A program made the translations under genes and the position numbers. The notes beneath the pieces are model-generated. The model was given only the letters and a program-made list of their open reading frames with translations. It made no database searches and was not told the DNA's origin. DNA of 64,000 nt from a virus (lineage: Duplodnaviria > Caudoviricetes), in IMG/VR virus record IMGVR_UViG_3300013121_000029, positions 1 to 64,000 of that record. One strand, given 5' to 3'. This document shows, in pieces, positions 3,129 through 63,121 of this stretch (position 1 is the stretch's first letter; each line of letters starts with the position of its first letter).

Positions 3129-3530
3129 ATGTTTTTGATTGAATTAAAGCAAACAGGAATATTGGAATTATTACATCAAATTAACGATGCTTTTAATACT
3201 AATGATGTGTTGCAGAAAGAAACTGCAGCACGATATTTGTCATTTTTAATGACCTATCGTGATTTCGATTTCCACTTCAAAGATAAAGAATACAATCCAA
3301 TGCTTCCAATTGAATATTTTTTACGTCCTGGTGTAGAAACATCTATTGCAGCTCTTGAACAATTTGCAAAAGCTGTAAGCGATGACAAATCCATTGACAA
3401 GCGTGTATTACGTTACACACAACGATTTATGGATGAACAAAATGGTAAGCAACAATTTCATTATCAATTAACGAAATTACAAGATTATTTTAAGAGACGT
3501 TTTGAAGAAACACAAAATGAAACTAAGTGA
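3129..3530 (+). CDS. hypothetical protein
   Basis: Tightly packed ORF in operon. Confidence 0.65.
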   Translation: MFLIELKQTGILELLHQINDAFNTNDVLQKETAARYLSFLMTYRDFDFHFKDKEYNPMLPIEYFLRPGVETSIAALEQFAKAVSDDKSIDKRVLRYTQRFMDEQNGKQQFHYQLTKLQDYFKRRFEETQNETK

Positions 3531-4038
3531 CTTACTTATTGAATCCGACCATGCACATATATATGAATGGTGCAAGAAATATGACATTACAAATTATGTC
3601 ATTGGCAAACATAGTGGACTCGTTCACGTACAAGGAAATGTGGATTTATCAAATAAAGGATTAACCTCCTTTGGTGTTAAATTTGGTACTATCGAAGGTA
3701 ATTTTTTGTGTCATAATAACAAATTAACATCACTTGAAGGTGCTCCTAAACACGTTGAAGGTAATTTCCATTGTGATAATAATAAGTTAGTATCGTTACA
3801 AGGTATACCGAAATCGATAGGAGGATTTGTGGATTTATCAAATAATCAATTAACATCACTTGAAGGTGTACCAAAAACAATATATGGTAGTTTTTATTGT
3901 GATCGTAACAAGTTAACGTCACTCGAATTTGCTCCTACTGAGGTAAATGGTAGTTTTTATTGTGACGGCAATAGAACAGCATTTACCAAAGAAGATGTAA
4001 AAAAAGTATGCAATGTGAAGGGGTCAATAAGTGTATAA
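3517..4038 (+). CDS. LRR-like repeat protein, type A copy 1
   Basis: 22-aa repeats GxFxCxxNxLTSLEGxPxxV; N-terminus nearly identical to 21757..22293, which fixes the start at 3517. Confidence 0.85.
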   Translation: MKLSDLLIESDHAHIYEWCKKYDITNYVIGKHSGLVHVQGNVDLSNKGLTSFGVKFGTIEGNFLCHNNKLTSLEGAPKHVEGNFHCDNNKLVSLQGIPKSIGGFVDLSNNQLTSLEGVPKTIYGSFYCDRNKLTSLEFAPTEVNGSFYCDGNRTAFTKEDVKKVCNVKGSISV

Positions 4039-21733: not shown

Positions 21734-21758
21734 AAAAGGGCCGAAAGGCCCTTTTTTT
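21732..21758. terminator. bidirectional terminator between convergent genes
   Basis: AAAAAAGGGCC-GAAA-GGCCCTTTTTT. Confidence 0.9.
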
Positions 21759-22293
21759 ATGTGACAACCTGCCCTGTGACAACCTGCCCTTTCACATCAC
21801 AAATCTTTCTTATATCAATTTCGTTAAAGGTTATTGCATTAAACCCACAGCTAAATTCACCACCAACCAGTTTAGGTGCACCATCAATAGAATGTAAATC
21901 ATTATGACGACAATAAAAATCTCTCCCCACTTCGACAGGAGCACCCTTCAGTGTGGTAAGTTTATTAAATCGACAATCGAACTCACCTCCGACATATTTG
22001 GGACCATGTTCAAGTGATAAGATGTTATTAACAAAACAATAAAAGTCACCTTCAACATATTTGGGACCATGTTCAAGTGATGTTAACATGTTATTATTAC
22101 ATTTAAAATTACCTTCAATTGTACCAAATTTAACACCAAAGGAGGTTAATCCTTTATTTGATAAATCCACATTTCCTTGCACATGAACTAATCCACTATG
22201 CTTGCCAATGACATAATTTGTGATGCCATATTTCTTACACCATTCATGTATATGTGCATGGTCGGATTCAATAAGTAAGTCACTTAGTTTCAT
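21757..22293 (-). CDS. LRR-like repeat protein, type A copy 2
   Basis: Same 22-aa repeat; first 63 aa 61/63 identical to 3517..4038. Confidence 0.85.
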   Translation of the reverse strand: MKLSDLLIESDHAHIHEWCKKYGITNYVIGKHSGLVHVQGNVDLSNKGLTSFGVKFGTIEGNFKCNNNMLTSLEHGPKYVEGDFYCFVNNILSLEHGPKYVGGEFDCRFNKLTTLKGAPVEVGRDFYCRHNDLHSIDGAPKLVGGEFSCGFNAITFNEIDIRKICDVKGQVVTGQVVT

Positions 22294-48089: not shown

Positions 48090-48347
48090 TTATGTTATAT
48101 CTATTTTTGCTATTATTTTAAGTGCTGCTAACCATTTAACAACAGCTTCTGCTTCCTTGTATTTATCAAATATAAAAGCATCACCCATATCACGCGACCA
48201 CATAACAGTATTATGTTTAACGTTATCATAATCTGCAAGATAGAAATGAGGGGTTTTATCAGTTTTCTGTCGAACAATGACATATTCCATTACATTATTA
48301 TCCATCGCGTCGTCGTCATCTTCGTGAAAGTACATATTATACCTCAT
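48090..48347 (-). CDS. hypothetical protein
   Basis: Coupled ORF. Confidence 0.55.
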   Translation of the reverse strand: MRYNMYFHEDDDDAMDNNVMEYVIVRQKTDKTPHFYLADYDNVKHNTVMWSRDMGDAFIFDKYKEAEAVVKWLAALKIIAKIDIT

Positions 48348-49138
48348 TAAAATTTTGCATATTCAGGGAATCCTTCATCTATAAGTTCTTGTTTTATTAC
48401 ATCTAATTCTCTTTCGTAAATTGGTATTTTCATGTGTTTTCTAACAATACGATCGACTTCATATGGTATTCCACTTAACGATAATAAATCAATACCACGT
48501 ATCATAAACACGCCCATAATATTTGATTTGATTGGTGAACTACTAATAAAAGATTGTTTAACTTGTTTGCACGTTTTATGTATATTATGCAATGTGGTAA
48601 GTGATTTACTACTTATATGAATACCTGATTCTGGACTTGAAGGATATCCTTCGACGCTTGTAATTTGATCACATCCGAATGTAGTTAAACTTCCTTTTAA
48701 TACAGAAGGTAGTCCTTTAACTGATGTTATTGGTAATGATGCTAATGTGATGTCTCCGCCTACATGAGAAGGAAAATGTTCTAACGACGTAATGCTGCAA
48801 TTTCTGATATGACAATTAGATCCGATATATATTGGACATCCTTTCAAAGATGTTAAATTAGGCAAGTCCATTAGTGTGAAATCCCCTGAGACCGTGTGTG
48901 GACACCAACCTTCGAGACTTGTCAATTTGGAGGATGTAAATAGTTTAAAATCACCAACGACTTCACCAAAACGAAGATGTGGTAATAACGGTTTAACACA
49001 CCTATCGTAATCAATACATGTCCATTGTCTATGGTTAGCGTTAGCAAAATTTAGATTAACATATCCTTCTTTTGATAAAGAAAGATATTTTAAGGGTATA
49101 AAGGATAACTTTGAAAATTCTTGTAATATATTGTCCAT
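48347..49138 (-). CDS. LRR-like repeat protein, type B copy 1
   Basis: LTSLEG.P / LTSLKGCP repeats; C-terminal LHK..K, I..HM...ELIDEG...AK shared with 59705..60559. Confidence 0.8.
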   Translation of the reverse strand: MDNILQEFSKLSFIPLKYLSLSKEGYVNLNFANANHRQWTCIDYDRCVKPLLPHLRFGEVVGDFKLFTSSKLTSLEGWCPHTVSGDFTLMDLPNLTSLKGCPIYIGSNCHIRNCSITSLEHFPSHVGGDITLASLPITSVKGLPSVLKGSLTTFGCDQITSVEGYPSSPESGIHISSKSLTTLHNIHKTCKQVKQSFISSSPIKSNIMGVFMIRGIDLLSLSGIPYEVDRIVRKHMKIPIYERELDVIKQELIDEGFPEYAKF

Positions 49139-49181
49139 AAACAGTTATCATTGATTGGATTAACTATTTATGGACAAATAG

Positions 49182-52368: not shown

Positions 52369-53103
52369 TCAATTATATTCAGTACCATCTTTACGTGTTA
52401 AATATTCTTCACTTACACTTTTAAGAATTACTCTACCAAGATCATAGTTAGTATATTCTAATTGTGGTGTAATAACAATTCCTTCACGCATGTGTAATTC
52501 TTTTCCTGACACTGTTTCTTTACCAGATGTATATCTTTTAATAAGATCAGGATTCCAAGGACCAAAATATAATACTGGAACACGTGTTAATCCTAATTGT
52601 TTAATAACAATCATCTTTTCGAATTCGTGCAGATATCTACCTTTTTTTGGCATTCCAATATACACATCAAATACTCTGAATTCAGTTCTAGTGAATCCAT
52701 AATCAAACCCATCTTGTACTCCTGGTCCAATTATTTCGCCTACAACATAAATGGGAGTTTCAGGAGTGAGGAACGAATGTTCTCCTGATTCACATAATTG
52801 TTTTAATCGTTGACCAATTGTTAATCCATTAACATCTAATGATTGTCTATATGTTCTAACGTATAGATTTTGGCTATTTGTTTCATTATCTTTAAATGCT
52901 AAACCTTTTGCTCCAAGACCTTTTGAAATAATAATTACCTTACCATCTTCGAATAACTCTGGTTGATCTTGTAATAAAGGATTATAACCTATTTGACAAT
53001 TTGTGCCATGAATTTTTTCTGTTACGGTTACTCTAACATCTTCATTAAATACACTTCCGTTGTAGGTAACATTCTTCGTGTTAATTAAAATTTTCGCTTT
53101 CAT
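52369..53103 (-). CDS. RNA ligase (DRB0094-like), C-terminal nucleotidyltransferase fragment
   Basis: TEKIHGTN motif I, GEIIGPGVQ, FRVFD, REGIV, LKSVS..YL; own promoter at 53133-53161. Confidence 0.88.
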   Translation of the reverse strand: MKAKILINTKNVTYNGSVFNEDVRVTVTEKIHGTNCQIGYNPLLQDQPELFEDGKVIIISKGLGAKGLAFKDNETNSQNLYVRTYRQSLDVNGLTIGQRLKQLCESGEHSFLTPETPIYVVGEIIGPGVQDGFDYGFTRTEFRVFDVYIGMPKKGRYLHEFEKMIVIKQLGLTRVPVLYFGPWNPDLIKRYTSGKETVSGKELHMREGIVITPQLEYTNYDLGRVILKSVSEEYLTRKDGTEYN

Positions 53104-53132
53104 ATTCTCAATCTCATAAATAGATAGATAAT

Positions 53133-53161
53133 ATTATACGTTAATAAAAGAAGAAATTCAA
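53133..53161 (-). promoter_or_regulatory. sigma70-type promoter for the ligase C-fragment
   Basis: TTGAAT-N17-TATAAT on -. Confidence 0.75.
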
Positions 53162-53162
53162 T

Positions 53163-53903
53163 ATGACAAAAACAATTCCGCAAGAACAAGTAATTCAAAG
53201 ATTCAGAACAATACATGGGGACAAATATGATTATTCTGAAGTCCAATATGAAAAAATGTTAATTAAAGTTTGTATTATATGCCCTCTTCATGGTAGATTT
53301 TTGATGAGACCTAATGATCATATATGGAATCATGGATGCCCTACATGCGGAAGTATACAAGGCAATAAAACCAAAATTAAAAATGAGAAAGCATCTGTGG
53401 ATGAACACGGAAAAACAAAATTTGAAAAAAGATATGAAAAAATACACGAAACAAGACGTCGAAATCAAAATTATAAATCAGCAGCCATTAAACGCATACA
53501 CACAATGAAGAGTAACGGAAGTTACGAGACCTGGAGAAGAAATTGGTATAATAAAATGGTAGAAATAGGAAAGTTTTCTGACCCATCTGATTATGATTTT
53601 GTCACATATGAACGTTTTAAACGTCGAGTATATAGAGAAACACGAAAAACATTGAAACGATGGGGTTATTTAATAAACTTTGATTCCACATTATTTACTA
53701 CAGATCGTCTTGTTGTTGATCATAAATATTCTGTTAACCAAGGATTTCTCAATAAAGTGTCGGTATATACTTTATCCCATATTCGAAATTTAACAGTTAT
53801 GGATCATAGTTCTAACTCCAGAAAAGGATCAACATGTTCAATAAGCTTAGAACAATTACTAGAAGATATTAATAATTTTGATCAAACTTGTATTGACGGG
53901 TAA
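53163..53903 (+). CDS. HNH homing endonuclease inserted antisense within the RNA ligase gene
   Basis: N-terminal HGDKYDY..CPLHG..GCPTC; C-terminal VDHKYS...NL......N.RK; TAAATA at ~53117. Confidence 0.85.
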   Translation: MTKTIPQEQVIQRFRTIHGDKYDYSEVQYEKMLIKVCIICPLHGRFLMRPNDHIWNHGCPTCGSIQGNKTKIKNEKASVDEHGKTKFEKRYEKIHETRRRNQNYKSAAIKRIHTMKSNGSYETWRRNWYNKMVEIGKFSDPSDYDFVTYERFKRRVYRETRKTLKRWGYLINFDSTLFTTDRLVVDHKYSVNQGFLNKVSVYTLSHIRNLTVMDHSSNSRKGSTCSISLEQLLEDINNFDQTCIDG

Positions 53904-54461
53904 TATAGGATTTCCTAATACATCACATTCGACTTCTATTTCTTCTGTAGATGACAGACTTTTCAATGGAGATTTGAAATTTTCAAGATCGTAATGTAAA
54001 GTAAATCCTGGAATATATGCTACATCACCACCAAATGATGGAGGAGGTACAGGTTCATATTTTGTAATACCTAAAAATTCAGCAACATCGTCTCCTTCCT
54101 TAACTAAGAGGACTTCTGCTGCTTCTGGATGTCCTTCTATGTTTACAGGACGTTCGATATCAGCATCATCAGAATCACCATTTACAGGAAATATTAATCC
54201 CTCAGAAAGTTGGCCACGGAGGCGAATCTCCTTCACTCTATTTTTATTTGGTCCAGCTAATTTGCCGACTAATTCTAATTTTTCGACAATCCACTGTGGA
54301 AGTAATGATGCAGGAGGAATGAATACTGCTAGATCTCCTGTTTTGTAGAGACCTTTTTTAACAATAGAACGATACTCCCCTATACGTGCAAGTTCTATGG
54401 CATCTGCATTAGGATGCGGTTCGATAGTTAATTTAAGTACTTGGACTTTAAATGTTGACAT
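53859..54461 (-). CDS. RNA ligase (DRB0094-like), N-terminal OB-fold fragment
   Basis: IEPHPNADAIE, VKKG..K.GD.AVFIP..S.LP, RLRGQLSEGL, LGITKYEP, YDLEN. Confidence 0.85.
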   Translation of the reverse strand: MSTFKVQVLKLTIEPHPNADAIELARIGEYRSIVKKGLYKTGDLAVFIPPASLLPQWIVEKLELVGKLAGPNKNRVKEIRLRGQLSEGLIFPVNGDSDDADIERPVNIEGHPEAAEVLLVKEGDDVAEFLGITKYEPVPPPSFGGDVAYIPGFTLHYDLENFKSPLKSLSSTEEIEVECDVLGNPILPVNTSLIKIINIF

Positions 54462-54520: not shown

Positions 54521-55054
54521 TTATACGAATATCCTTCCTAGAACTTTAGTTACCCGTGAAACGTCAGATGGATGAAACGTTGTGCCATTCTGTCCACACG
54601 AGAAATTACCTTCGACTACTTTAGGAGCACCTTCTAAAGTAGTTAATTTGTTTTCATAACAAAAAAATCCCTTAGGTCCTATACGAGAAGGTGCACCCTT
54701 GAGTGATATTAATTGATTACCAACACATGAATATTCTCCATCTACCTCCGAAGGTGAATATTGTAATGTGGTTAATTCGTTGTGTGAACAGTCAAAATTA
54801 CCTTCGACTACTTTAGGAGCCCCTTTAAGCGAAGTTAATTTATTATATGAACAATCAAAATCACCTTCAATCGTTCCAAATTGTATATCTATCGAAATTA
54901 ACTTGGCACCTGACAAATTTACATTGCCCATAACGTGAACATGACCTGAATGTTTCCCCACCACATAATTGTTAATGTTATATTTCCTACACCATTTATG
55001 TATTGCTGAATGATCTGGCTCTGTAGTTTCTGTTAATAAGTCAGTTAGTTTCAT
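54521..55054 (-). CDS. LRR-like repeat protein, type A copy 3
   Basis: Same cap (WC.KY.I.NY..GKHSG.VHV.GNV.LS) and 22-aa repeats. Confidence 0.85.
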   Translation of the reverse strand: MKLTDLLTETTEPDHSAIHKWCRKYNINNYVVGKHSGHVHVMGNVNLSGAKLISIDIQFGTIEGDFDCSYNKLTSLKGAPKVVEGNFDCSHNELTTLQYSPSEVDGEYSCVGNQLISLKGAPSRIGPKGFFCYENKLTTLEGAPKVVEGNFSCGQNGTTFHPSDVSRVTKVLGRIFV

Positions 55055-57102
55055 GTCATGTAAGTTACGTTATCAGCACGTGAAGTATTAAGTTGTCTCA
55101 AAAATGCTTCATATGTTTCTTTACTATCAAGAATTAAGAAGGCACCACGATTGCGTAATAAGGTAACAATATTTCTAAAATTATCCCCGTGTAATATATC
55201 ACTATCAGATGCAACAATAATATTATACTTGTCAGTAATAGCTTCTTGTGCAATTCCTAATTCTGCAGTTGTGAAAGCAGTACCACCATTTTGCGTCATA
55301 TTAATTACTTGTGATAATTTATGAGTCCAGGTTGAAGGTGAATCTTTAACAGAGTTAACAGGAGCAGCTATATCCCCCTCAACTTGTGCTTTAAATAAGG
55401 AATACCCATCACTGAATCTCATAATAGCAAATTGTGTTTTACGGAAAGCTGTCTTACTAGCAAGTTCAAGAACGCTCTTGTTGATAGAACCAATAATAGG
55501 AGACATTGATCCTGACGAGTCTAATATAAACAATAGTTTAGCTGTAGTCTCGACTCCAATTTCGCCAGGAGAAACGGAACCAGATCCTGTTTGTTTAACC
55601 TGCAAGGCAGTTCTTCCGGCACTTCTTGTATTCATTCTTTGATATGTTTCTTCAGTTTCTTGAGCAGCATTTAGCACTAATTGACGAATGATTTCCTTCC
55701 AAGAAATTCGTGGAGGTTGTGGAGTTACAGCAGTAATTTTTCCAGCACCGCTTCCAGGTTGTCCTGTGGATTTAGATTTAGCAGGAGGTTGATCTTTTAC
55801 ATCATCCTTACGTTCCTCTTTAACCTGTTCAGCAATTTTCTTACTTACTTCATCCACCACTTGGTTAATATTTTGACCAGGTTTAGTATGAATATCAATT
55901 GATTGCTGTCCTTTTTCAGGTGGATTAGTGTCATCAATATTAACATTAGTTTCCTCACCTTCTTCGTTACCAGGATCATGATCGTCCGTTTGACGATCTA
56001 ACCAATCTTCAATATCGCTACCATTTTCCCCATCACCTGGATCACCACCTTCGCCATCTTTACTTTCATCATCTTTACTTTCTTTTAATTTTTGTAATTC
56101 TTCTTTAACAATTTTGTACATCAATTCATAACTGTCTTGACGGTCATAGTTAATTTCGTCACAAAATAATCCCATAGGAAGCGGAGAGAATCCGCTTTTT
56201 GCTAGTAAGTAGTTAGAACGGAAGTCACCAACATAGTTAATAATTTTAGGATTTGCTTTTCCACCATTATCTGGATCTTTAATGATTTTTTGATAATAAA
56301 AATCACTATGTGTAAAATGCATGTATTCATGTAGAATTAAAAACTCAATATAAGCATACTCTGGTGGGAATTTACCACCATTGTTTGTATATTTTAATCC
56401 TTGTGGTTGAAGTTTAATTATATGAGCATAATCCATTAATTTTTGCATAAACAAAATATTAAAGATAAATGTACCACTTGGAGTAGCAGCTGCAGTATCG
56501 ATAGAAGCCCATCTATCTTCTTTTGTAGATTGTTTATTCTTTTTTCTCTCTAATCTTTCTTCTTTTTCTTTTTGTAATTGTTCGGCTTTTTTAGGATCAA
56601 TAAGATCGTTGCCGTGTCCAGGATGAACTCTTGTGAACACAAAGTCTTCATTTTTTAATGGTTTACGTTCAAGATAACTAACAAGTGGAAAGAATTCAGG
56701 CATCTCAGACTTAAGTTTATTGAGTAACCTTTCAAATATAACTTTTGAAAATTTTGGACCCCCGACGTCAACATCTACGTTACAAAATAAATCAAATAAT
56801 GTACTTTCGATAAAATTGTTCTTCATTGTCGAAAATAATAATGGAGCTAATTTTTCTTTTCCGTTTAAATTTGCGACTTTTTCGTTTATTAAATCAACAA
56901 CAACTGCTGGTGCCACATTTGCAGCCTTTGCGACGATTTTAATGACATCTTGAATATGAGGATCATTTAACGATGAAGCACGGAATTTCACTGTTCCGCG
57001 TTTGGCTTTTGTTATATCCATAGAAGCCTCACGAATAATCTTCGGAGGCATATCAAGTGATACCTTTTGTGTCATTCTATCTCTTAAGGATAACAATTTC
57101 AT
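55051..57102 (-). CDS. HEXXH metallopeptidase-like + VWA domain protein (DUF2201-like)
   Basis: IDTAAAT, ILHEYMH, N..GD...N, acidic/Gly linker, ISW...L, LDSSGSM MIDAS, GGT, SD.D. Confidence 0.85.
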   Translation of the reverse strand: MKLLSLRDRMTQKVSLDMPPKIIREASMDITKAKRGTVKFRASSLNDPHIQDVIKIVAKAANVAPAVVVDLINEKVANLNGKEKLAPLLFSTMKNNFIESTLFDLFCNVDVDVGGPKFSKVIFERLLNKLKSEMPEFFPLVSYLERKPLKNEDFVFTRVHPGHGNDLIDPKKAEQLQKEKEERLERKKNKQSTKEDRWASIDTAAATPSGTFIFNILFMQKLMDYAHIIKLQPQGLKYTNNGGKFPPEYAYIEFLILHEYMHFTHSDFYYQKIIKDPDNGGKANPKIINYVGDFRSNYLLAKSGFSPLPMGLFCDEINYDRQDSYELMYKIVKEELQKLKESKDDESKDGEGGDPGDGENGSDIEDWLDRQTDDHDPGNEEGEETNVNIDDTNPPEKGQQSIDIHTKPGQNINQVVDEVSKKIAEQVKEERKDDVKDQPPAKSKSTGQPGSGAGKITAVTPQPPRISWKEIIRQLVLNAAQETEETYQRMNTRSAGRTALQVKQTGSGSVSPGEIGVETTAKLLFILDSSGSMSPIIGSINKSVLELASKTAFRKTQFAIMRFSDGYSLFKAQVEGDIAAPVNSVKDSPSTWTHKLSQVINMTQNGGTAFTTAELGIAQEAITDKYNIIVASDSDILHGDNFRNIVTLLRNRGAFLILDSKETYEAFLRQLNTSRADNVTYMT

Positions 57103-59705
57103 TATGCTGTGGCCTCTTGTACAACAGTATTAGCAACATCATCTTGTTCAACGAACGCACTTACTACATCGAATAAAATATCTGGTTCAAGTTTGTCCTT
57201 AATTTCATTTTTCTTAATTCTGCAACTGGACACTTGATTTACACGATCGTTTGATACTTCATGCATAATCAAGGTGGTACGTAATACGATGAGGAAGTTT
57301 GCAAGGAAGCTGACTTGTAATGAATCATCTTGTGCAAATGTACCTTGTTCAATGTTAGGACGTAATACTGGATGAGATTGATCTAACAAATATTGCTGAG
57401 CACGTTTATCATTTTCAGTCATATATAAAGCCACGTTCTTCATTGCTGAATCGAATTCAGGATGTGATACGCTCTTATTTGCATTTATTAATTCTTCATC
57501 TTCAGGCATATCTTTCAATGGTTTCTTCAAAGACAAATAGTCTTGTAATACATCATCTAAACTCTTACGTAATGTAGGACGTTTGACGAATAAATTACCG
57601 AACACACTTACATCTAAGTTATCAAACCACTCACGTAATACATTATAAATGTTTTGATAATCTAAAGCACCATGCTTATATTGGAAAGAGTTTGTAGTTG
57701 CTTCTTCAAATGCTTCAGCCATTGTCTGTGTAACATATTCTTTTGACTTAATTTTATCTTCAAACACTTCAGGATTTCTTTTTAATTTATCTAAAATAGT
57801 ATCAACAGAATCGACCATGTGCTTATATAATGATTCATATTCACGTGGAGAGAAGTAAAATTCACTTGATCCGACATGTAAGTTAAATGGTTTCTTAGAT
57901 TCAGGAACACCTGGAGTCTTTGATTTAAATTGTGAAACAAATGTTTCTATTACAGCTTGAACTGCATCTTTAGCATCAGGTGAGGCGTCCACATCTAAAT
58001 TTTTAATGTAATTCCAAGTCGAGTTCCAATTACCATATGCTGGAATAATATCAACCACGTCTCTAAAATGTTCTGTTAATTGTGAAGTGGCGCCACCAAT
58101 AGGGTTAATTGCACCAACAACGATTGATCCGTCAGGAATTTTGATGAGATTTCCTTTTTCATCAGGACCAAAATTTTTCTCAAGCATAATTCTACGTAAA
58201 GCATTAAACACTTTAGTTGATTGTACGCGATTGATTTCGTCGAAGAAAATTAAATATTTCCATTCTTTATTAGGAAATTCTTTAATTAATTGTTCAGCTT
58301 TTTTCGGATCATCCTTGTATTGCTCACGCCAATAATCAAATAACACTTTCTCAGCACTTTTCTTTTGTGTCATAATACGTTGATAAAGTTCTGGTTCAGA
58401 GAAGTGTACTTTACGATTGCCTTCTTGATCTTCTTGTGCCAATGGAATACCAATAACGGATTCAGGATTTAATACTGTCGCTTCGATAGGAATATATGCT
58501 AATCCTAAATCGTGAGCAATTTTTAAAGAATTAGTTGTTTTTCCGATTCCCGGAGGACCAGACACGATAGGAATATATTTTCTATACTCTCCTAATTTCA
58601 TTTGAGCTCTAACAAGAGAGAATAGTGTATCTCTCCAACTTGTATCATCTAATGTTTGATGTTCGTCAACGGACATTTTTGACGTAGCTTTCATTGCGTC
58701 AATTGTTAATTTCATTACTTTTGAACTCAATTCACCAAAATGTTTATCGATATAATGATAGAAATTATGTTTTACGTTTGTAAGTAATTGTTTTGCTTCT
58801 GCTTCATTTTCGACAGGTAAGGAGGCACAAATATACAACATCAATTGTTCCCATCTACGAGGAGAAATTCTGACTCCACGATCAGTATAATTTATATCAT
58901 CATCTGTAAGATGTTCACGGAAGATTTTAATTACATCAGGGTTAATATCTACACGAGGATTTTTTTCGTGTTTAGATTCAAACCAATCAAACCATTCTTC
59001 TTTTGTTGGAGCTTCATGTTTAAGAATTAACCAATCTTCATTTGACAGTACTGGTTCAACAGCACCATGAGTAATGTCGCTCATATTTGAAGCATAGATG
59101 ATATACACACTATCAGGTACTTTATCCATACCGATATTACGGTTTAGCAATCCACGTAAGATGTTTCTTGTTCTTGTAGAAGATTGTCTATAGTATTCAT
59201 CTAAAAATAGAATGCAATTATAACGATCACGTGCCTTCTGAATAGTTGGTGGAATAGTTTTTTCGTCACCACCCATTCTCATAAACAATTGTTGAATGTG
59301 GCTCGGAGCGTCAGCAATTTCTTTCAAATAATCTGAATCACTTATTTTTTTAACTGCTTTAATTTTAGTTAATAAATTAGATTCTGCTAATTGGATTTGA
59401 TATTGTGTTCCTTTCGATGCTTGATCTTTCATGTCTTCTAAATCAACAGATACAGAATCGCCAGTTGATTTATTTGTGACCGGATCGAACGTGATAAAAG
59501 GAATATTAATCAAATGTTCTTCAATAATATGTGGAATCTCAATTACAATTGTTTTAATACCAGTTAATTTAGACAATAATTCAATACTACTAGTCTTTCC
59601 TATACCAGGATCACCAGTTAACAATGCTCCTGCTGGAGTTGTTGAATTCATGTTTTTAATAATCTTAGTTAATTGTTTTTCTATTTTTGTGCCCATTAAA
59701 TTCAT
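57102..59705 (-). CDS. tandem AAA+ ATPase (MoxR/dynein-related)
   Basis: Two Walker A (GDPGIGKT, GPPGIGKT), two Walker B (LFLDEYYR, IFFDEINR), two SPR sensor motifs. Confidence 0.9.
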   Translation of the reverse strand: MNLMGTKIEKQLTKIIKNMNSTTPAGALLTGDPGIGKTSSIELLSKLTGIKTIVIEIPHIIEEHLINIPFITFDPVTNKSTGDSVSVDLEDMKDQASKGTQYQIQLAESNLLTKIKAVKKISDSDYLKEIADAPSHIQQLFMRMGGDEKTIPPTIQKARDRYNCILFLDEYYRQSSTRTRNILRGLLNRNIGMDKVPDSVYIIYASNMSDITHGAVEPVLSNEDWLILKHEAPTKEEWFDWFESKHEKNPRVDINPDVIKIFREHLTDDDINYTDRGVRISPRRWEQLMLYICASLPVENEAEAKQLLTNVKHNFYHYIDKHFGELSSKVMKLTIDAMKATSKMSVDEHQTLDDTSWRDTLFSLVRAQMKLGEYRKYIPIVSGPPGIGKTTNSLKIAHDLGLAYIPIEATVLNPESVIGIPLAQEDQEGNRKVHFSEPELYQRIMTQKKSAEKVLFDYWREQYKDDPKKAEQLIKEFPNKEWKYLIFFDEINRVQSTKVFNALRRIMLEKNFGPDEKGNLIKIPDGSIVVGAINPIGGATSQLTEHFRDVVDIIPAYGNWNSTWNYIKNLDVDASPDAKDAVQAVIETFVSQFKSKTPGVPESKKPFNLHVGSSEFYFSPREYESLYKHMVDSVDTILDKLKRNPEVFEDKIKSKEYVTQTMAEAFEEATTNSFQYKHGALDYQNIYNVLREWFDNLDVSVFGNLFVKRPTLRKSLDDVLQDYLSLKKPLKDMPEDEELINANKSVSHPEFDSAMKNVALYMTENDKRAQQYLLDQSHPVLRPNIEQGTFAQDDSLQVSFLANFLIVLRTTLIMHEVSNDRVNQVSSCRIKKNEIKDKLEPDILFDVVSAFVEQDDVANTVVQEATA

Positions 59706-60559
59706 TATGTTGCCCTCGCAAACTGTTGTAATCCTGCTTGTACTAATTCATCTTTGCAATCCATTGGATCAGGATCAGACATTTGCAAATGTCTGTTAAT
59801 AATTTGAACCGCTGTGTATAGTGGACCTCTGTCATCAGAGGATAAGTTAATTTTCGTGACACCATCAATCAACATAACACTTAATATTGAACTTGTGATT
59901 TGATCATCAATAGTAATTGACCCTTTCATTTTTTTTACATGTTTATGTAAATTAGCTAATGATGTAAATCCATTATATGATATATTTAAGCTGCCTTGTA
60001 TATTACTAGGCATTCCTTCAAATGATTTGATTTGTGGACAATTAGTAATAGTTAATCCTGATGCTAATTTTGGTTGTGAAGTTTGTAAAGTAGAAGGTAA
60101 TCCTTTTAATGATGTTAGCTTTTCATTATTTGCAAGATTAATAATACTAGCTTGTTGAGGACAGCCTTCTAAATTTGTAATATTTGTATTATCCACAATA
60201 AAATTTGTAACAGATGGTGGACAGCCTTTTAATGAAGTAAATTCTTCGCCATGAAGGGCAAGTTGAAATAAAGTACCAGAGAATTTAAATGCCAAATGAC
60301 CATCTTTAAGAAGATGTGTAACTTCTGATTTTGTGAAGTGGTCCATTTCAAGACTAATGATTTGATTAGGTGCTACCACTGTTAAATCGTCTGTAATTTC
60401 AAATTGAATTAATCTAGAACCATGTACTTGGCGTTCATGGTTAATAATATTAAACAACTTCTCTATGTGCTCTTTTTTTGCCTCTATAGAAGATTCGTTA
60501 ATTGGAGTAATGTTGTTAACAACAGATTGTTTTAAATTAGCGAAATCCGTTAACTTCAT
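59705..60559 (-). CDS. LRR-like repeat protein, type B copy 2
   Basis: TSLKGCP, TNLEGCP, TSLKGLP repeats; C-terminal tail shared with 48347..49138. Confidence 0.8.
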   Translation of the reverse strand: MKLTDFANLKQSVVNNITPINESSIEAKKEHIEKLFNIINHERQVHGSRLIQFEITDDLTVVAPNQIISLEMDHFTKSEVTHLLKDGHLAFKFSGTLFQLALHGEEFTSLKGCPPSVTNFIVDNTNITNLEGCPQQASIINLANNEKLTSLKGLPSTLQTSQPKLASGLTITNCPQIKSFEGMPSNIQGSLNISYNGFTSLANLHKHVKKMKGSITIDDQITSSILSVMLIDGVTKINLSSDDRGPLYTAVQIINRHLQMSDPDPMDCKDELVQAGLQQFARAT

Positions 60560-60603
60560 GAAAAATACTCTTGTGGATTAACTATTTATTAAAAATTGCT
60601 AGT

Positions 60604-60819
60604 TTAATCAAAACTCATAGCACGTTTGAAACTTGCTGGATCGTTCTTTTTAAGTGACTTTAACGAATTGTAATGCGATTTATATTCAGGGCTTGTAGGA
60701 TCATCTAACCCCATAAAAGAAAGAGCAGCTTTGATTTGTGGATCATCAGAGCTGACTCCTTCATTTATTAACTGTTCTTCAACAGGTTTTGTGTTTGTTT
60801 CAATATCATGTAATTTCAT
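60604..60819 (-). CDS. hypothetical protein
   Basis: GAGG RBS inside 26-bp palindrome 60818-60843; TAAATA upstream. Confidence 0.6.
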   Translation of the reverse strand: MKLHDIETNTKPVEEQLINEGVSSDDPQIKAALSFMGLDDPTSPEYKSHYNSLKSLKKNDPASFKRAMSFD

Positions 60820-60843
60820 AGTAGAACCTCGAGGTTCTACTAT

Positions 60844-61890
60844 TTATTCCTCATCAGAATCGTTTTGATTAAATCCTTGACGAATACCTTTAAGGCCCTT
60901 GTAAGGTACAGATAAAGTCTTCACCACACTTGTCTTATTTCTCATTGCTGGAATAAAATCAAATGCTCTTTCAGAGAAACCTGCTAATTGATACCAACCA
61001 TCAATTTCGCTTACAGGAGTGGAAGCATATGCATTCAAGTTAAATGCTACTTTAACAACATTTGATCCGAAAATCTTTGTTGCTTCACGTTTTGAACTTA
61101 ACTGATTCACCTGCATATCACTAAACAGGATCACAGTATCAGGTTCAAATCCTAATGCTGGTTTAAGATCTAAAGCAGCCTGTAAGTTTGTTCCACCACC
61201 ATATGAACGTGCTTCAATGGCTTCTACGTTAGCAAACATATTTGCCTTTGGATCGACGTTGATGTGTTCAGCACTGTTACTGAAAATCGTAACTTTCACA
61301 TTAGTTGCGTTTTTATTTGCACCAACTAATGCTGCAGAGAAAAGCGCTCCAGTTTGAAGTGGAGTACCTTCCATACTTCCTGATACATCAAGAATAATCC
61401 AAATATTGTTACCAATAGAAGGAATGTTAGTTAAACTTGTGTTACATGCATCACGAACAGCAGCACGTAATCTATCTTTATTAACATTCTTACCTTGTGC
61501 TCCATCGATTGCTGTTAAAGCATTAACGAAACGGAAAGGAAGTTGTTTTGACTTTTTAATTTGGTCTTCATCAACTAACTTACCCATTACCTGCTTGATA
61601 ACAGTATCAGGTACGTTTGCTTCAATGATGTTTCGGAGATTGCGAAGAAGTGCCATATATTGTACACTGTTAGATTCGATCAAATCAGTCCAAACTTCAG
61701 CATTTGTTTTGCGCTCGTTTGCTGGTAATTGACCATTAGCACTCAACACAGTTTCCCATGTTTTTGGGGTTGCTAATTCGTCTTTTATCAATTTAGCAAA
61801 GATTTCACCTTGTTCTGGTGTTTTACCTACAGGGTGAACAATGCGTAATACGTCACGAAGTTTAACTTGTTTTTTGCTGTGCTTTGCCAT
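60844..61890 (-). CDS. Ro60/TROVE protein, C-terminal fragment (TROVE end + VWA)
   Basis: VKLRDVL..VHP, TWET.LS, YMALLRNLRNI, QLPFRF, LDVSGSM, GGT, FSDMQ; AGGAG before ATG 61890. Confidence 0.9.
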   Translation of the reverse strand: MAKHSKKQVKLRDVLRIVHPVGKTPEQGEIFAKLIKDELATPKTWETVLSANGQLPANERKTNAEVWTDLIESNSVQYMALLRNLRNIIEANVPDTVIKQVMGKLVDEDQIKKSKQLPFRFVNALTAIDGAQGKNVNKDRLRAAVRDACNTSLTNIPSIGNNIWIILDVSGSMEGTPLQTGALFSAALVGANKNATNVKVTIFSNSAEHINVDPKANMFANVEAIEARSYGGGTNLQAALDLKPALGFEPDTVILFSDMQVNQLSSKREATKIFGSNVVKVAFNLNAYASTPVSEIDGWYQLAGFSERAFDFIPAMRNKTSVVKTLSVPYKGLKGIRQGFNQNDSDEE

Positions 61891-62476
61891 TTTCTTTCTC
61901 CTGTTTGTGTAGTAATTTATGACATTGTTTACATAATGTAAGTCCATTGTCAATATTAAATCTTTCATCCATATTTGTAGAGAACGGTTTAATGTGGTGA
62001 GCTTCTAGTTCACAATGTGTGATTCCGCACATCCTACAATAATATTGATCGCGTTGGAAAACTAATGTTCTCCAGGTTTTATATTGGTCTGATTGTCTAA
62101 GTAAAATGTTTTCATTACTTAATCCACCTTTCCAATTCCAATGAAGTTCTTTACTCTTTCCTGTATTTTTTAATCGATCATCCGTTCGTTTAGTTAATCC
62201 TTTATTCCAACTTGATTTGCCTTTTCGTGAAATAGAAAGCTTTTGCTTAGTTTCTTCTGAAACAGTTTTTCCTACCCATTTATGCCTATGAAGTCGGGCC
62301 CATGTATTTGCTCTTCCTTTTAAGGAATCTGATACTGTTCGTCTCGGAATTCCATATCGCTTCATCCAATTTAACACTGTTGCTCCTGAGCAATTAAATT
62401 TATCTGCAATTTGTTGTAGTGATAATTTTTGGTTGATGTATAACTCAATTAATAATTCTTGTTCGATTTTTTTCAT
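61862..62476 (-). CDS. HNH homing endonuclease (HTH + NUMOD3 + HNH) inserted in the Ro60 gene
   Basis: LSLQQIA HTH, SEETKQKLS, WNKG, HWNWKGG, RD.Y.C..CG...AHHIKP....NG.TLC..CH. Confidence 0.9.
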   Translation of the reverse strand: MKKIEQELLIELYINQKLSLQQIADKFNCSGATVLNWMKRYGIPRRTVSDSLKGRANTWARLHRHKWVGKTVSEETKQKLSISRKGKSSWNKGLTKRTDDRLKNTGKSKELHWNWKGGLSNENILLRQSDQYKTWRTLVFQRDQYYCRMCGITHCELEAHHIKPFSTNMDERFNIDNGLTLCKQCHKLLHKQEKENGKAQQKTS

Positions 62477-62506
62477 TTTAAATACTTCTAATATTAGAAG
62501 TATTTA

Positions 62507-63121
62507 TTAATTCCATTTAGCAAGAGAGTACTCATTGAATTTTTCGAAAGCATCTGCAACCCCACGACGAATTGCCATAGGTACAGCATTCTTTCCACCA
62601 AAAACAGATAATGCATATGCATATAAATCAGTGATTTGGTCAGCACGTTGAATTACGTCGCAAACAACACGACGCATATCATTATAGGTAAACTGTTCAG
62701 CTTTTGATTGAAAAGTTGCTATTTTAATATTTTCAGCATCGGTTAACTCACGACCATTTGCACTTTGTTTAATAGTAGTAATTTGATCAAGGAACAATTT
62801 ACGATTATCAGAAAGGGCCTTTGCAAATTCAACACAAAGAATGATAGGCATGGTACGAATGTTCATATTCGTACGTGCGTGAACGATTAAATTTGCTAAG
62901 AAGTCGAAATTTTTATTGGCAACAACAGAAGACAAAAGTTCACGCAAACGACGTAAACGATCGTTTGAACTTTCATAGAATTCATCTTTACCGTACAAAG
63001 TCATTGTAACAACTTCGTACAATTGTTGTTCAGCATTTTTAAGGAATTGTGGATTACCGTTGTAAGAATAAGCAACCTTATTCTGTTTTGCGGATTTGTT
63101 TGGCTTATTTAATTTAGACAT
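62507..63121 (-). CDS. Ro60/TROVE protein, N-terminal fragment
   Basis: FYES, AR...N.RT.P, IQRADQ, RRGVADAF.KFNEY.LAKWN; GAGGAG RBS. Confidence 0.88.
   Translation of the reverse strand: MSKLNKPNKSAKQNKVAYSYNGNPQFLKNAEQQLYEVVTMTLYGKDEFYESSNDRLRRLRELLSSVVANKNFDFLANLIVHARTNMNIRTMPIILCVEFAKALSDNRKLFLDQITTIKQSANGRELTDAENIKIATFQSKAEQFTYNDMRRVVCDVIQRADQITDLYAYALSVFGGKNAVPMAIRRGVADAFEKFNEYSLAKWN

What the first reader, a model, noticed from the sequence alone, without database searches (positions are those of the whole stretch)
54521..60590. Translationally coupled late operon LRR - tandem AAA+ - HEXXH/VWA - LRR: candidate adaptor-guided remodelling/proteolysis machine
Seen: four genes joined by TAATG/ATGA overlaps (59705, 57102, 55051-55054) behind a TAAATA at ~60583. 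The ATPase has two complete AAA modules; its partner has an HEYMH motif, an acidic linker and a DSSGS MIDAS. Established: MoxR-type AAA+ proteins work with VWA partners as chaperones/remodellers, and LRRs are protein-recognition scaffolds. Inference: the LRR paralogs, here and dispersed elsewhere, are exchangeable specificity subunits that direct the AAA/peptidase to host targets such as defence proteins. I know of no described function for this combination.
Basis: inference. Interest (0 to 1): 0.7.

Follow-up and report, generated by a model that had tools for sequence, protein, structure and literature searches.

The report
Jumbo-phage AAA–VWA module with cargo family
A large uncultured T4-type phage carries a tightly coupled gene set: a small protein, a two-engine ATPase, a protease-plus-grabbing-domain partner and flanking repeat proteins. 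Relatives keep the same set, and two of its proteins were reported in purified virions of one related phage, so it most likely handles proteins that are packed into the phage head.

Summary
Four minus-strand genes overlap by TAATG, TAATG and ATGA. A fifth, conserved small gene (60604-60819) also belongs to the module.

- **ATPase.** It has two intact AAA modules, and the model places them side by side as in dynein and midasin.
- **Partner.** It is a DUF2201_N zincin (invariant HExxH), an acidic linker and a VWA domain with an invariant MIDAS.
- **What is already known.** Iyer et al. 2021 described a single-module MoxR plus zincin-vWA pair in jumbo phages and proposed a virion-assembly role. 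This genome carries that canonical pair separately, so the tandem system is a variant.
- **LRR linkage.** The link is real. In three relatives' records every family copy found sits next to the pair, and in RsoM2USA three of four do. Two relatives have none.
- **What defines the flanking family.** It is an undescribed, strictly C-terminal module (at least 1,200 clusters at 50% identity) plus a T4-like capsid-targeting leader. The LRR is not the defining feature.
- **Virion evidence.** RsoM2USA virion bands were assigned to the ATPase and to one family member.

Most likely this is a head-associated remodelling and processing complex whose clients or co-packaged partners are these cargo proteins. 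Adaptor-guided attack on host defences remains untested. First-stage readers flagged the same operon type in four other windows; none had been followed up.

The parts
60841..60847 (-). ATAAATA promoter-like motif, 28 nt before the small gene
   Evidence: An 11-bp perfect hairpin (60818-60843) lies between the motif and the ATG.
60604..60819 (-). Small conserved protein (71 aa) with the C-terminal motif NPxxF/YxK/RxM.
   Evidence: jackhmmer finds homologues of 59-130 aa just upstream of the AAA gene, or of LRR-AAA, in about 19 related loci. These include loci without LRR genes and RsoM2USA gp87. The last 45 aa align without gaps. No Pfam match.
60583..60589 (-). ATAAATA promoter-like motif, 30 nt before the LRR/C-tail gene
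   Evidence: The 16-nt context is identical to that upstream of the paralogue at 48347-49138.
59705..60559 (-). LRR-like protein P0001 (284 aa) carrying the family's conserved C-terminal module (residues about 210-284, 59708-59932)
   Evidence: The Atlas model has pTM 0.82 and its neighbours are LRR-like. The C-terminal module matches only viral hypothetical clusters.
57102..59705 (-). Two-module AAA+ ATPase P0002 (867 aa). Walker A1 59592-59615, Walker B1 59196-59201, Walker A2 58536-58559, Walker B2 58236-58241. A helical C-terminal domain starts at about residue 700.
   Evidence: Pfam AAA 2e-16 and AAA_5 8e-11. Invariant motifs. AF2 pLDDT 84. Both modules align together to dynein, Mdn1 and Rea1.
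55051..57102 (-). Zincin (DUF2201_N)-acidic linker-VWA protein P0003 (683 aa). HEYMH 56317-56331, linker about 55708-56085, MIDAS DSSGS 55507-55521.
   Evidence: 21 of 26 orthologues hit PF13203, best 9e-14. VWA fold: Foldseek top hit NorD VWA at 4e-6 plus the Rea1/MDN1 MIDAS domain, and VIA Z about 10.
54521..55054 (-). Short LRR-like protein P0004 (177 aa) with the leader MKLTDLLTE and no C-terminal module
   Evidence: A P0004-like gene sits in the same position in L002.
48347..49138 (-). Dispersed paralogue (263 aa) with the C-terminal module and the same promoter/5' UTR as P0001
21757..22293 (-). Dispersed short LRR paralogue (178 aa, leader MKLSDLLIE)
3502..4038 (+). Dispersed short LRR paralogue (178 aa)

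Best explanation
This is a conserved gene module of T4-related jumbo phages, probably expressed late. The gene order is: small protein, LRR/C-tail protein, two-module MoxR/dynein/midasin-type AAA+ ATPase, zincin-linker-VWA partner, LRR protein.

Proposed mechanism (all inferred):
- The ATPase forms a ring from chains that each supply two neighbouring modules, most simply three chains.
- The translationally coupled partner docks on the ring and grasps clients with its MIDAS site.
- ATP hydrolysis pulls on or remodels the clients, and the zincin domain clips them.

The clients or co-packaged partners most tightly linked genetically are a large family of small proteins. Each has a T4-style capsid-targeting leader, a variable (often LRR) middle and a conserved C-terminal module. 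They are head cargo of the internal-protein type. The machine therefore acts at head assembly or maturation and is itself carried in the virion.

Shown here: domain identities, conserved catalytic motifs, gene coupling, genomic linkage and leader enrichment. Taken from the literature: virion bands assigned to the ATPase and to one family member in RsoM2USA. Inferred: ring stoichiometry, the MIDAS-client contact, cleavage, and timing.
For: - Tight AAA-to-VWA coupling: overlap or a gap of at most 40 nt in 26 of 28 scored loci.
- Both Walker sets, the HExxH and the MIDAS are invariant.
- The two AAA modules align in-plane to dynein AAA2-3, Mdn1 and Rea1 (Z 12.5-13.8, about 470-510 residues, rmsd about 5 A). 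Stacked ClpA and NVL give rmsd 14-15 A.
- The VWA domain is closest to the NorD and Rea1/MDN1 MIDAS domains.
- Homology to the Atu_ph07 MoxR plus zincin-vWA pair, for which Iyer et al. proposed virion assembly.
- Inteins interrupt the ATPase in several relatives, as is usual for core genes.
- Linkage of the family to the pair. G005, G006 and G008 hold only adjacent copies. RsoM2USA has 3 of 4 adjacent. In G001 and G003 the best-scoring copies are the adjacent ones. In the window's own genome, copies flank the pair on both sides.
- A CTS-like leader is present in 77 of 144 family representatives, against 1 of 118 ATPase homologues and 29 of 587 other ORFs in the loci.
- A T4 gp21-type prohead protease is present in relatives.
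- RsoM2USA virion bands were assigned to ORF86 (ATPase, 96.4 kDa) and ORF89 (family member, 28.6 kDa).
- ATPases that carry an N-terminal extension with a leader-like start occur where neighbouring family genes are absent or leaderless, and the reverse also holds.
Against: - No interaction, cleavage, ATPase activity or expression timing has been measured.
- The RsoM2USA assignments come from excised gel bands ('most likely correspond') in a single phage.
- G002 has 8 family genes and none is adjacent. G004 (87% complete) and G009 have the pair but no family member, so the family is not an obligatory client.
- The C-terminal module has no invariant acidic residue that would make an obvious MIDAS ligand.
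- The window's ATPase and P0001 lack a clean L/I-x-E leader.
- No prohead protease was found in the held 72% of this genome.
- The leader complementarity is confounded by phylogeny.
- ATAAATA also lies 42 nt upstream of a topoisomerase gene, on the opposite strand of a palindromic site. 'Late' is therefore an analogy only.
Confidence: 0.5

Rival explanations
1. The complex and the LRR/C-tail proteins are ejected into the next host. There the variable LRR domains act as exchangeable adaptors that bring host proteins, such as defence systems, to the AAA/zincin machine for unfolding and cleavage. The C-terminal module is the docking tail, comparable to the SspB tail on ClpX.
For: - The family is hypervariable and greatly expanded: 36-40 copies in G001 and G007, and at least 1,200 clusters at 50% identity.
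- Both ends of the proteins are conserved and the middle varies.
- T4 internal proteins that share only a CTS are diverse anti-defence proteins (PMC3012670).
- The ATPase and one family member were reported in virions.
- The genes are linked.
Against: - No host target and no interaction are known.
- The pair is conserved as a core gene, carries inteins and exists without the family in some lineages. That fits a housekeeping role in morphogenesis better than an accessory weapon.
- The window's short LRR paralogues lack the proposed docking tail.
- A 96-kDa ring ATPase would have to be ejected and then reassemble in the host.
Confidence: 0.2
2. The AAA/zincin-VWA pair, with the small protein, is a general virion-assembly chaperone-protease, as Iyer et al. 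proposed and as ATV p618/p892 suggest. It acts on structural proteins. The LRR/C-tail genes lie nearby only because late head-cargo genes cluster and duplicate there, and there is no physical or functional coupling.
For: - The pair and the small protein are conserved even where the family is absent.
- G002 shows no adjacency.
- Published proposal.
- ATV ORF892 appears among the structural matches of P0003.
- The family forms large arrays far from the pair in G001, G003 and G007.
Against: - Apart from the small protein, no other neighbour of the pair is conserved across loci at 35-40% ATPase identity, whereas the family is adjacent in about half of them, on either side and once between the two genes.
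- In three records the only copies are the adjacent ones.
- A P0004-like LRR also lies two genes from the genome's second, single-module pair.
- The start and stop codons of the flanking LRR genes overlap the pair in the window.
Confidence: 0.25
3. The pair belongs to the phage's RNA-repair toolkit, because in this window it sits between Ro60/Y-RNA genes and RNA ligase genes.
For: - Ro60 (TROVE plus VWA) lies upstream, and a PHA02142-OB gene plus an RNA ligase lie downstream.
- The Atu_ph07 pair lies one gene from an RnlA ligase.
Against: These neighbours have no homologues in the 44 related loci. RsoM2USA has other neighbours. Nothing in the proteins suggests RNA binding.
Confidence: 0.03

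Closest known systems
MoxR AAA+ plus metallopeptidase-vWA pair of group 2.2 jumbo phages (Iyer, Anantharaman, Krishnan, Burroughs, Aravind 2021, Viruses 13:63; example Atu_ph07 ASV44729.1 / ASV44728.2)
   Same: Homologous by profile comparison. The zincin through MIDAS region scores prob 97.9, E 5e-13, and AAA module 2 scores prob 97.4. It is an adjacent, coupled gene pair in T4-related jumbo phages. A virion assembly and processing role was proposed.
   Different: The published pair has a single AAA module (417 aa) and a partner of about 430 aa. Here the ATPase has two modules (867 aa) and the partner has an extra N-terminal region of about 200 aa plus a long acidic linker. This genome carries the canonical pair separately at about 79.9-82.4 kb. 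In the passages I searched, that paper mentions neither the small protein nor the LRR/C-tail family.
Acidianus two-tailed virus p618 (MoxR) / p892 (VWA), Scheele et al. 2011, J Virol 85:4812
   Same: A virus-encoded MoxR-VWA chaperone pair implicated in virion (tail) morphogenesis (cited). ORF892 appears among the structural matches of P0003 (E 4e-5).
   Different: It is an archaeal virus, the partner has no zincin domain, the ATPase has a single module, and there is no linked cargo family.
Midasin (Rea1/Mdn1) and dynein: concatenated AAA modules with, in midasin, a MIDAS domain
   Same: These are the best structural matches for the two-module unit and for the VWA/MIDAS domain. Own knowledge: the midasin MIDAS domain grips a client domain and the ring pulls it off.
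   Different: Those proteins have six modules in one eukaryotic chain of several thousand residues. Here there are two modules per chain and the MIDAS domain is on a separate protein. Sequence identity is only 12-14%, so this is an analogy of architecture and not orthology.
Bacterial MoxR-VWA systems (NorQ/NorD, CbbQ/CbbO, RavA/ViaA)
   Same: An AAA_5 ATPase with an adjacent VWA adaptor. The NorD VWA domain is the top Foldseek match (4e-6) and NorQ matches module 2 at Z 9.9.
   Different: Those are single-module hexamers without a peptidase domain, and their clients are metabolic enzymes.
T4 internal proteins (IPI-III) with the capsid targeting sequence, and Alt
   Same: A short N-terminal leader ends in L/I-x-E, the proteins are otherwise highly diverse, a gp21-type protease is present, and they are packaged and ejected (PMC9026906, PMC3012670). 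RsoM2USA gp89 starts MKTFKQFLSE and was assigned to a virion band.
   Different: The family here also has a conserved, strictly C-terminal module of about 70 aa and often LRR repeats. It reaches 36-40 copies per genome and is linked to an AAA/VWA pair. Cleavage and ejection have not been shown.
Zincin-VWA ('metallopeptidase domain / VWA-like') proteins of N4-like and other phages (PHROG 1314, with ATPase PHROG 1297)
   Same: The same two-domain architecture matches by structure over about 500 columns in Klebsiella, Pseudomonas, Ruegeria, cyanophage and Bacillus phage proteins. PHROG hits are 1e-21 and 5e-23.
   Different: Those proteins are about 380-450 aa and pair with single-module ATPases. 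I found no described function for them. PHROG 1314 is labelled 'HNH endonuclease', whereas the domains found here are a zincin and a VWA domain.

Membership tests
MoxR-type AAA+ (AAA_5; the clade that includes dynein and midasin) | Intact Walker A and Walker B motifs | tested here: met
   In 21 homologues, G34, G36, K37, T38, D169 and E170 (module 1) and G386, G388, K389, T390, D489 and E490 (module 2) are invariant.
MoxR-type AAA+ (AAA_5; the clade that includes dynein and midasin) | Matches the AAA_5 model above its curated cut-off | tested here: met
   PF07728 scores 42.6 bits against a cut-off of 22, on residues 381-549 (module 2). PF00004 has its best stretch on module 1 (residues 28-211).
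MoxR-type AAA+ (AAA_5; the clade that includes dynein and midasin) | A VWA/MIDAS partner encoded next to the ATPase | tested here: met
   1-nt overlap in the window. The partner follows the ATPase in 42 of 45 loci, and the gap is at most 40 nt in 26 of 28 scored loci.
MoxR-type AAA+ (AAA_5; the clade that includes dynein and midasin) | Fold nearest to members of the clade | tested here: met
   Foldseek top hits are dynein motor domains (1.6e-12), with Rea1 at 2e-10. VIA gives dynein Z 13.8, Mdn1 12.6, Rea1 12.5 and NorQ 9.9. RFC, Lon and HslU single modules also score Z 11-12.5, so the single-module fold alone does not discriminate.
MoxR-type AAA+ (AAA_5; the clade that includes dynein and midasin) | One AAA module per chain, forming a homohexamer (classical MoxR) | tested here: not met
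   There are two modules per chain. It therefore works like a MoxR but is an architectural variant. The oligomeric state cannot be tested here.
VWA domain with MIDAS | DxSxS ... T ... D metal-site residues | tested here: met
   D528, S530, G531, S532 and T608 are invariant, and D633 and D635 are at least 90% conserved, in 26 orthologues.
VWA domain with MIDAS | VWA alpha/beta fold | tested here: met
   Residues 514-683 match TEM8, CMG2, NorD, integrin I and Rea1-MIDAS domains at Z 8.3-10.7. Foldseek matches NorD at 3.7e-6.
DUF2201_N putative metallopeptidase (PF13203) | Matches the family model above its cut-off | tested here: inconclusive
   P0003 itself scores 20.6 bits against a cut-off of 23.2. 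21 of 26 orthologues match, best 9.2e-14. In six-frame searches the orthologues in five related records pass the cut-off. hhalign to Atu_ph07 ASV44728.2 gives prob 97.9.
DUF2201_N putative metallopeptidase (PF13203) | HExxH zinc-binding and catalytic motif | tested here: met
   H258, E259 and H262 are invariant. The third ligand and the activity cannot be tested here. The fold of the N-terminal domain was not tested on its own.
Leucine-rich repeat proteins | Tandem units of about 21-23 aa of the form LxxLxGxPxxVxGxFxCxxN | tested here: met
   Visible in P0004 and P0001 and across the family alignment.
Leucine-rich repeat proteins | Matches curated LRR models | tested here: not met
   No Pfam family at E <= 0.1 for P0001 or P0004. 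LRR_4 matches 4 of 23 members (best 0.001) and LRR_EndoS matches 3 of 23. Some distant homologues carry precomputed LRR_4, LRR_8 or LRR_9 hits.
Leucine-rich repeat proteins | Solenoid fold | tested here: inconclusive
   The Atlas model of P0001 (pTM 0.82) aligns to LRR_4, LRR_EndoS and Receptor-L clusters at TM 0.55-0.64. I made no model of my own.
T4-type CTS-tagged internal head proteins | N-terminal leader of about 10 aa ending in L/I-x-E | tested here: met
   P0004 starts MKLTDLLTE and the paralogue at 21757-22293 starts MKLSDLLIE. 77 of 144 family representatives have such a leader, against 1 of 118 and 29 of 587 controls. P0001 (MKLTDFANLKQS) does not fit cleanly.
T4-type CTS-tagged internal head proteins | A gp21-type prohead protease (Peptidase_S77) in the genome | tested here: inconclusive
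   Present in G001, G002, G003 and RsoM2USA at 89-103 bits. Not found in the held 72% of this genome.
T4-type CTS-tagged internal head proteins | Found inside virions, with the leader cleaved, and ejected | not testable with these tools
   Literature only: an RsoM2USA virion band was assigned to ORF89. Cleavage and ejection are unknown.
Jumbo-phage MoxR plus zincin-vWA pair of Iyer et al. 2021 | Homology of both genes to the published example | tested here: met
Jumbo-phage MoxR plus zincin-vWA pair of Iyer et al. 2021 | Same architecture (single AAA module of about 417 aa; partner of about 430 aa) | tested here: not met
   867 aa with two modules, and a 683-aa partner. A canonical 417/398-aa pair exists elsewhere in the same genome.

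The most novel reading that the evidence does not exclude
The head of these jumbo phages carries an ATP-driven effector-handling machine. A dynein/midasin-like two-module AAA+ ring with a MIDAS-zincin partner would be co-packaged and co-ejected with a polymorphic arsenal of up to about 40 leader-tagged proteins that share one C-terminal handle. The packaging leader may sit on whichever partner carries it, so the rest rides along. In the newly infected cell the machine would use that handle either to extract, refold or activate the ejected effectors, or to feed host proteins captured by their variable LRR domains to the protease.
Probability: 0.2. Interest if true: 0.85.

Novelty: new variant of a known kind. 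Interest (0 to 1): 0.6.

Why it matters
MoxR-VWA pairs fused to a peptidase are widespread in phages, but no client or function has been shown for any of them. This variant supplies concrete client candidates:

- **A large linked family.** It has at least 1,200 clusters at 50% identity, is defined by a strictly C-terminal module and a capsid-targeting-like leader, and sits beside the machine in many lineages.
- **A conserved small partner protein.**

One cultured phage, RsoM2USA, has the whole set, and its ATPase and one family member were already assigned to virion bands. The question 'what does a phage MoxR-VWA-peptidase act on?' can therefore be tested directly by pull-downs, virion proteomics and point mutants.

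If the family proves to be ejected cargo, it would be a much larger counterpart of the T4 internal proteins. It would also be a rich source of host-binding, possibly anti-defence, proteins.

Tried and rejected
Contexts came from the search for related loci and the genome search instead.
- Megablast of the region against phage records gave no match.
- The first pattern scan with P0002 alone found no loci. An alignment query was needed.
- Sequence search of P0003 against PDB chains gave nothing. The profile search found only VWA domains.
- A stacked, type-II (Cdc48/ClpA-like) arrangement of the two AAA modules was rejected. Joint alignments to ClpA, NVL and Yta7 give rmsd 14-18 A, against about 5 A for dynein and Mdn1.
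- The idea that the C-terminal module offers an invariant acidic residue to the MIDAS site is not supported. Only L, I, L and A positions are near-invariant.
- The C-terminal module matched nothing meaningful in the PDB by profile, and no named Atlas cluster.
- The RNA-repair link was rejected because the Ro60 and ligase neighbours are not conserved in relatives.
- No RNA holder is listed among the sequencing runs.
- Peptidase_S77 was not found in the window's own partial record.
- tblastn of a G001 array paralogue against cultured phages gave no match. P0001 matched other phages only over its LRR part.
- Supplements of Iyer et al. are not held.

Full report
**Observation**

The window is the first 64 kb of a 197.6-kb IMG/VR phage record, about 72% complete and about 33% GC. 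Four minus-strand ORFs lie exactly where the finding says. They are joined by TAATG at 59705, TAATG at 57102 and ATGA at 55054-55051.

An ATAAATA heptamer sits 30 nt before the first gene. The window holds 30 copies of this heptamer. 22 are intergenic and 19 lie within 70 nt upstream of a same-strand start codon, so it behaves as a promoter element. Calling it 'late' rests only on its likeness to the T4 late promoter TATAAATA. One copy also precedes a topoisomerase gene, within a palindromic site. No RNA data could be found.

**The ATPase (P0002, 867 aa)**

- Pfam gives AAA (2e-16) and AAA_5 (8e-11).
- About 500 homologues of 850-900 aa at 36-41% identity were found. Many lie on contigs of 180-360 kb, and several are interrupted by inteins.
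- In an alignment of 21 homologues, both Walker A and both Walker B motifs are invariant.
- The AlphaFold model has pLDDT 84.
- The model's two modules superpose together on neighbouring modules of dynein, Mdn1 and Rea1 (Z 12.5-13.8, about 470-510 residues, rmsd about 5 A). Stacked double-ring ATPases fit only at rmsd 14-18 A.

I read this as a two-module unit of a planar ring. That three chains make the ring is an inference.

**The partner (P0003, 683 aa)**

- HEYMH lies at residues 258-262 and DSSGS at 528-532. H258, E259, H262, D528, S530, G531, S532 and T608 are invariant in 26 orthologues.
- 21 of 26 orthologues match Pfam DUF2201_N, best 9e-14. P0003 itself falls just below the cut-off.
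- The C-terminal domain has the VWA fold. Its best matches are the NorD VWA domain in NorQD complexes and the Rea1/MDN1 MIDAS domain.
- In four lineages the gene is split in two at the acidic linker.
- Viral structure matches show the same zincin-VWA architecture in many N4-like and other phages, and in ATV ORF892.

**What is already known**

Iyer et al. [quoted passage not shown] The vWA protein carries an N-terminal metallopeptidase domain. They proposed a role in virion assembly with peptidolytic processing, by analogy to ATV p618/p892.

Those accessions are adjacent Atu_ph07 genes of 417 and 429 aa. Profile comparison shows they are homologous to module 2 of the ATPase and to the zincin-to-MIDAS part of the partner.

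This genome also holds a canonical single-module pair (417 + 398 aa) at about 79.9-82.4 kb. G001 holds both pairs. RsoM2USA, G002, G003 and G004 show only the large partner protein. The tandem system is therefore a distinct paralogous variant and not the published pair itself.

**Neighbourhood survey**

44 related viral loci were fetched.

- The partner gene follows the ATPase in 42 of 45 loci. The gap is at most 40 nt in 26 of 28 scored loci.
- Of the window's other neighbours, only the small gene described below recurs. The rest match at most one locus.
- Genes of the LRR family directly flank the pair in about 16-20 of 37 non-redundant loci. They lie upstream, downstream or once between the two genes, sometimes as arrays of 4-9.

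Whole-record counts with a family profile:

| Record | Family copies | Position relative to the pair |
|---|---|---|
| G005 | 1 | adjacent |
| G006 | 1 | adjacent |
| G008 | 2 genes | both adjacent |
| RsoM2USA | 4 | 3 adjacent (gp88-90) |
| G001 | 40 | the only full-length match is adjacent |
| G003 | 20 | the two best-scoring are adjacent |
| G007 | 36 | one array abuts the pair |
| This genome | 6 | 2 flank the pair, 1 lies two genes from the second pair |
| G002 (complete) | 8 | none adjacent |
| G004 (87% complete) | 0 | - |
| G009 | 0 | - |

The linkage is far beyond chance, but the family is not obligatory.

**A missed component**

The 71-aa ORF at 60604-60819 has its own ATAAATA. It has homologues of 59-130 aa immediately upstream of the ATPase, or of LRR-ATPase, in about 19 loci. 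These include lineages without LRR genes and RsoM2USA gp87. The last 45 residues align without gaps around an NPxxF/YxK/RxM motif. The conserved core is therefore small protein, ATPase and partner.

**The flanking family**

- Its members share a conserved C-terminal module of about 70 aa that ends at the last residue, typically ...CQxELIDAGLxxFAKL.
- A profile of that module finds 2,881 cluster representatives at E <= 1e-3 and 1,200 at E <= 1e-10 among 1.84 billion proteins. In almost all listed hits the module lies at the extreme C-terminus.
- It matches no named Atlas cluster and nothing meaningful among PDB sequences.
- The middle region is variable. It is often LRR-like, sometimes preceded by a zinc ribbon and a Pro/Ala-rich linker.
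- G001 holds about 27 tandem paralogues of roughly 200 aa with this organisation.
- 77 of 144 representatives begin with M-K/R-hydrophobic ... L/I/F-x-E within 13 residues, against 1 of 118 ATPase homologues and 29 of 587 other locus ORFs.
- This leader resembles the T4 capsid targeting sequence. In T4 the first 10 residues direct internal proteins into the prohead, and gp21 removes them after L/I-x-E (PMC9026906). T4 internal proteins are diverse anti-defence proteins that share only that leader (PMC3012670).
- Relatives encode a gp21-type protease. The held part of this genome does not show one.
- In the window, P0001 and the paralogue at 48347-49138 have the C-terminal module. P0004 and three other paralogues lack it but carry the leader.

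**Virion evidence (literature)**

In RsoM2USA, ten Coomassie bands from purified virions were analysed by LC-MS/MS. They were assigned, among others, to ORF86 (96.44 kDa) and ORF89 (28.57 kDa) (PMC8504454). These are the ATPase homologue and a family member that begins MKTFKQFLSE. The masses recomputed from the locus are 96.43 and 28.56 kDa. This is one phage and a gel-band assignment, so the evidence is moderate.

**A suggestive pattern**

Some ATPases carry an N-terminal extension with a leader-like start. In those loci the neighbouring family genes are absent or leaderless (1 of 16). ATPases without the extension sit beside leader-bearing family genes (about 17 of 27). This would fit co-packaging of a complex by one leader, but the two groups are also clades, so it is only a lead.

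**Interpretation**

The best-supported reading is a head-associated MoxR/midasin-type remodelling and processing complex whose linked clients or co-packaged partners are leader-tagged cargo proteins (confidence 0.5).

It fits the family's polymorphism. It fits less well with the pair's core-gene behaviour (inteins, presence without the family) and with the tail-less short LRRs.
- A pure morphogenesis chaperone with only coincidental linkage (0.25) is weakened by the records where the only copies are adjacent.
- An RNA-repair role (0.03) is disfavoured because those neighbours are not conserved.

**Earlier notes of this scan**

First-stage readers flagged the same operon type in four other windows from other genomes, and this stretch was read a second time. 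None of those notes had been followed up. Notes on this genome had already proposed a leader-tagged cargo set. I tested the leader only for the family studied here.

Noticed in passing
own genome beyond the window, G000 about 78.6-82.4 kb (L052:2656-6386): A second, canonical single-module MoxR (417 aa) overlaps by ATGA with a DUF2201_N/VWA protein (398 aa). A phosphoesterase-like gene follows, and then a P0004-like LRR protein (237 aa, leader MKLQQLVEQ).
   Followed up: partly
window 60844-63121: The Ro60 gene appears to be in pieces. The 374-aa ORF holds only TROVE positions 273-367 plus a VWA domain, and an HNH endonuclease ORF (61862-62476) lies upstream of it. Another first-reader note in this scan flagged the same thing.
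   Followed up: no
window 52369-54461: A PHA02142 OB-fold ORF (53859-54461) and an RNA ligase ORF (52369-53103) are separated by a plus-strand ORF (53163-53903), so this may be a split ligase. The Atu_ph07 pair also lies one gene from an RnlA ligase.
   Followed up: no
window 60818-60843: A perfect 11-bp hairpin lies between the ATAAATA motif and the start of the small gene. The ATG begins at the last base of the 3' arm, which might control translation or transcript stability.
   Followed up: no
window 60574-60589 and 49156-49171: The two long LRR/C-tail paralogues share an identical 16-nt promoter/5' UTR stretch that begins with ATAAATA. This points to duplication together with the control region.
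   Followed up: partly
L037:6804-10514, L040:7995-11639; proteins P0039, P0046, P0060, P0062, P0100, P0102: Inteins or homing endonuclease domains interrupt the ATPase in several relatives. In L037 the insertion lies inside the first Walker A motif.
   Followed up: partly
L050 (G001:284000-302000) and L051 (G007:98000-109000): Head-to-tail arrays of paralogues of roughly 170-250 aa (about 27 in L050, about a dozen in L051). Most carry a T4-CTS-like leader, and all have a variable middle and the conserved C-terminal module.
   Followed up: partly
L012:10402-12599, L021:10502-12846, L028:10458-12770, L036:1868-4068: The zincin-VWA gene is split into two genes at the Gly/Glu/Pro-rich linker in four loci.
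   Followed up: no
L002:6975-7973, L004:6906-7910, L037:5866-6804, L040:6056-7051: The long family members directly upstream of the ATPase carry an N-terminal CxxC...C zinc-ribbon-like segment and a Pro/Ala/Thr-rich linker of about 60-100 aa before the LRR part.
   Followed up: no
PHROG 1314: The PHROG family that matches the zincin-VWA protein (1e-21) is labelled 'HNH endonuclease'. That label does not fit the domains found here.
   Followed up: no
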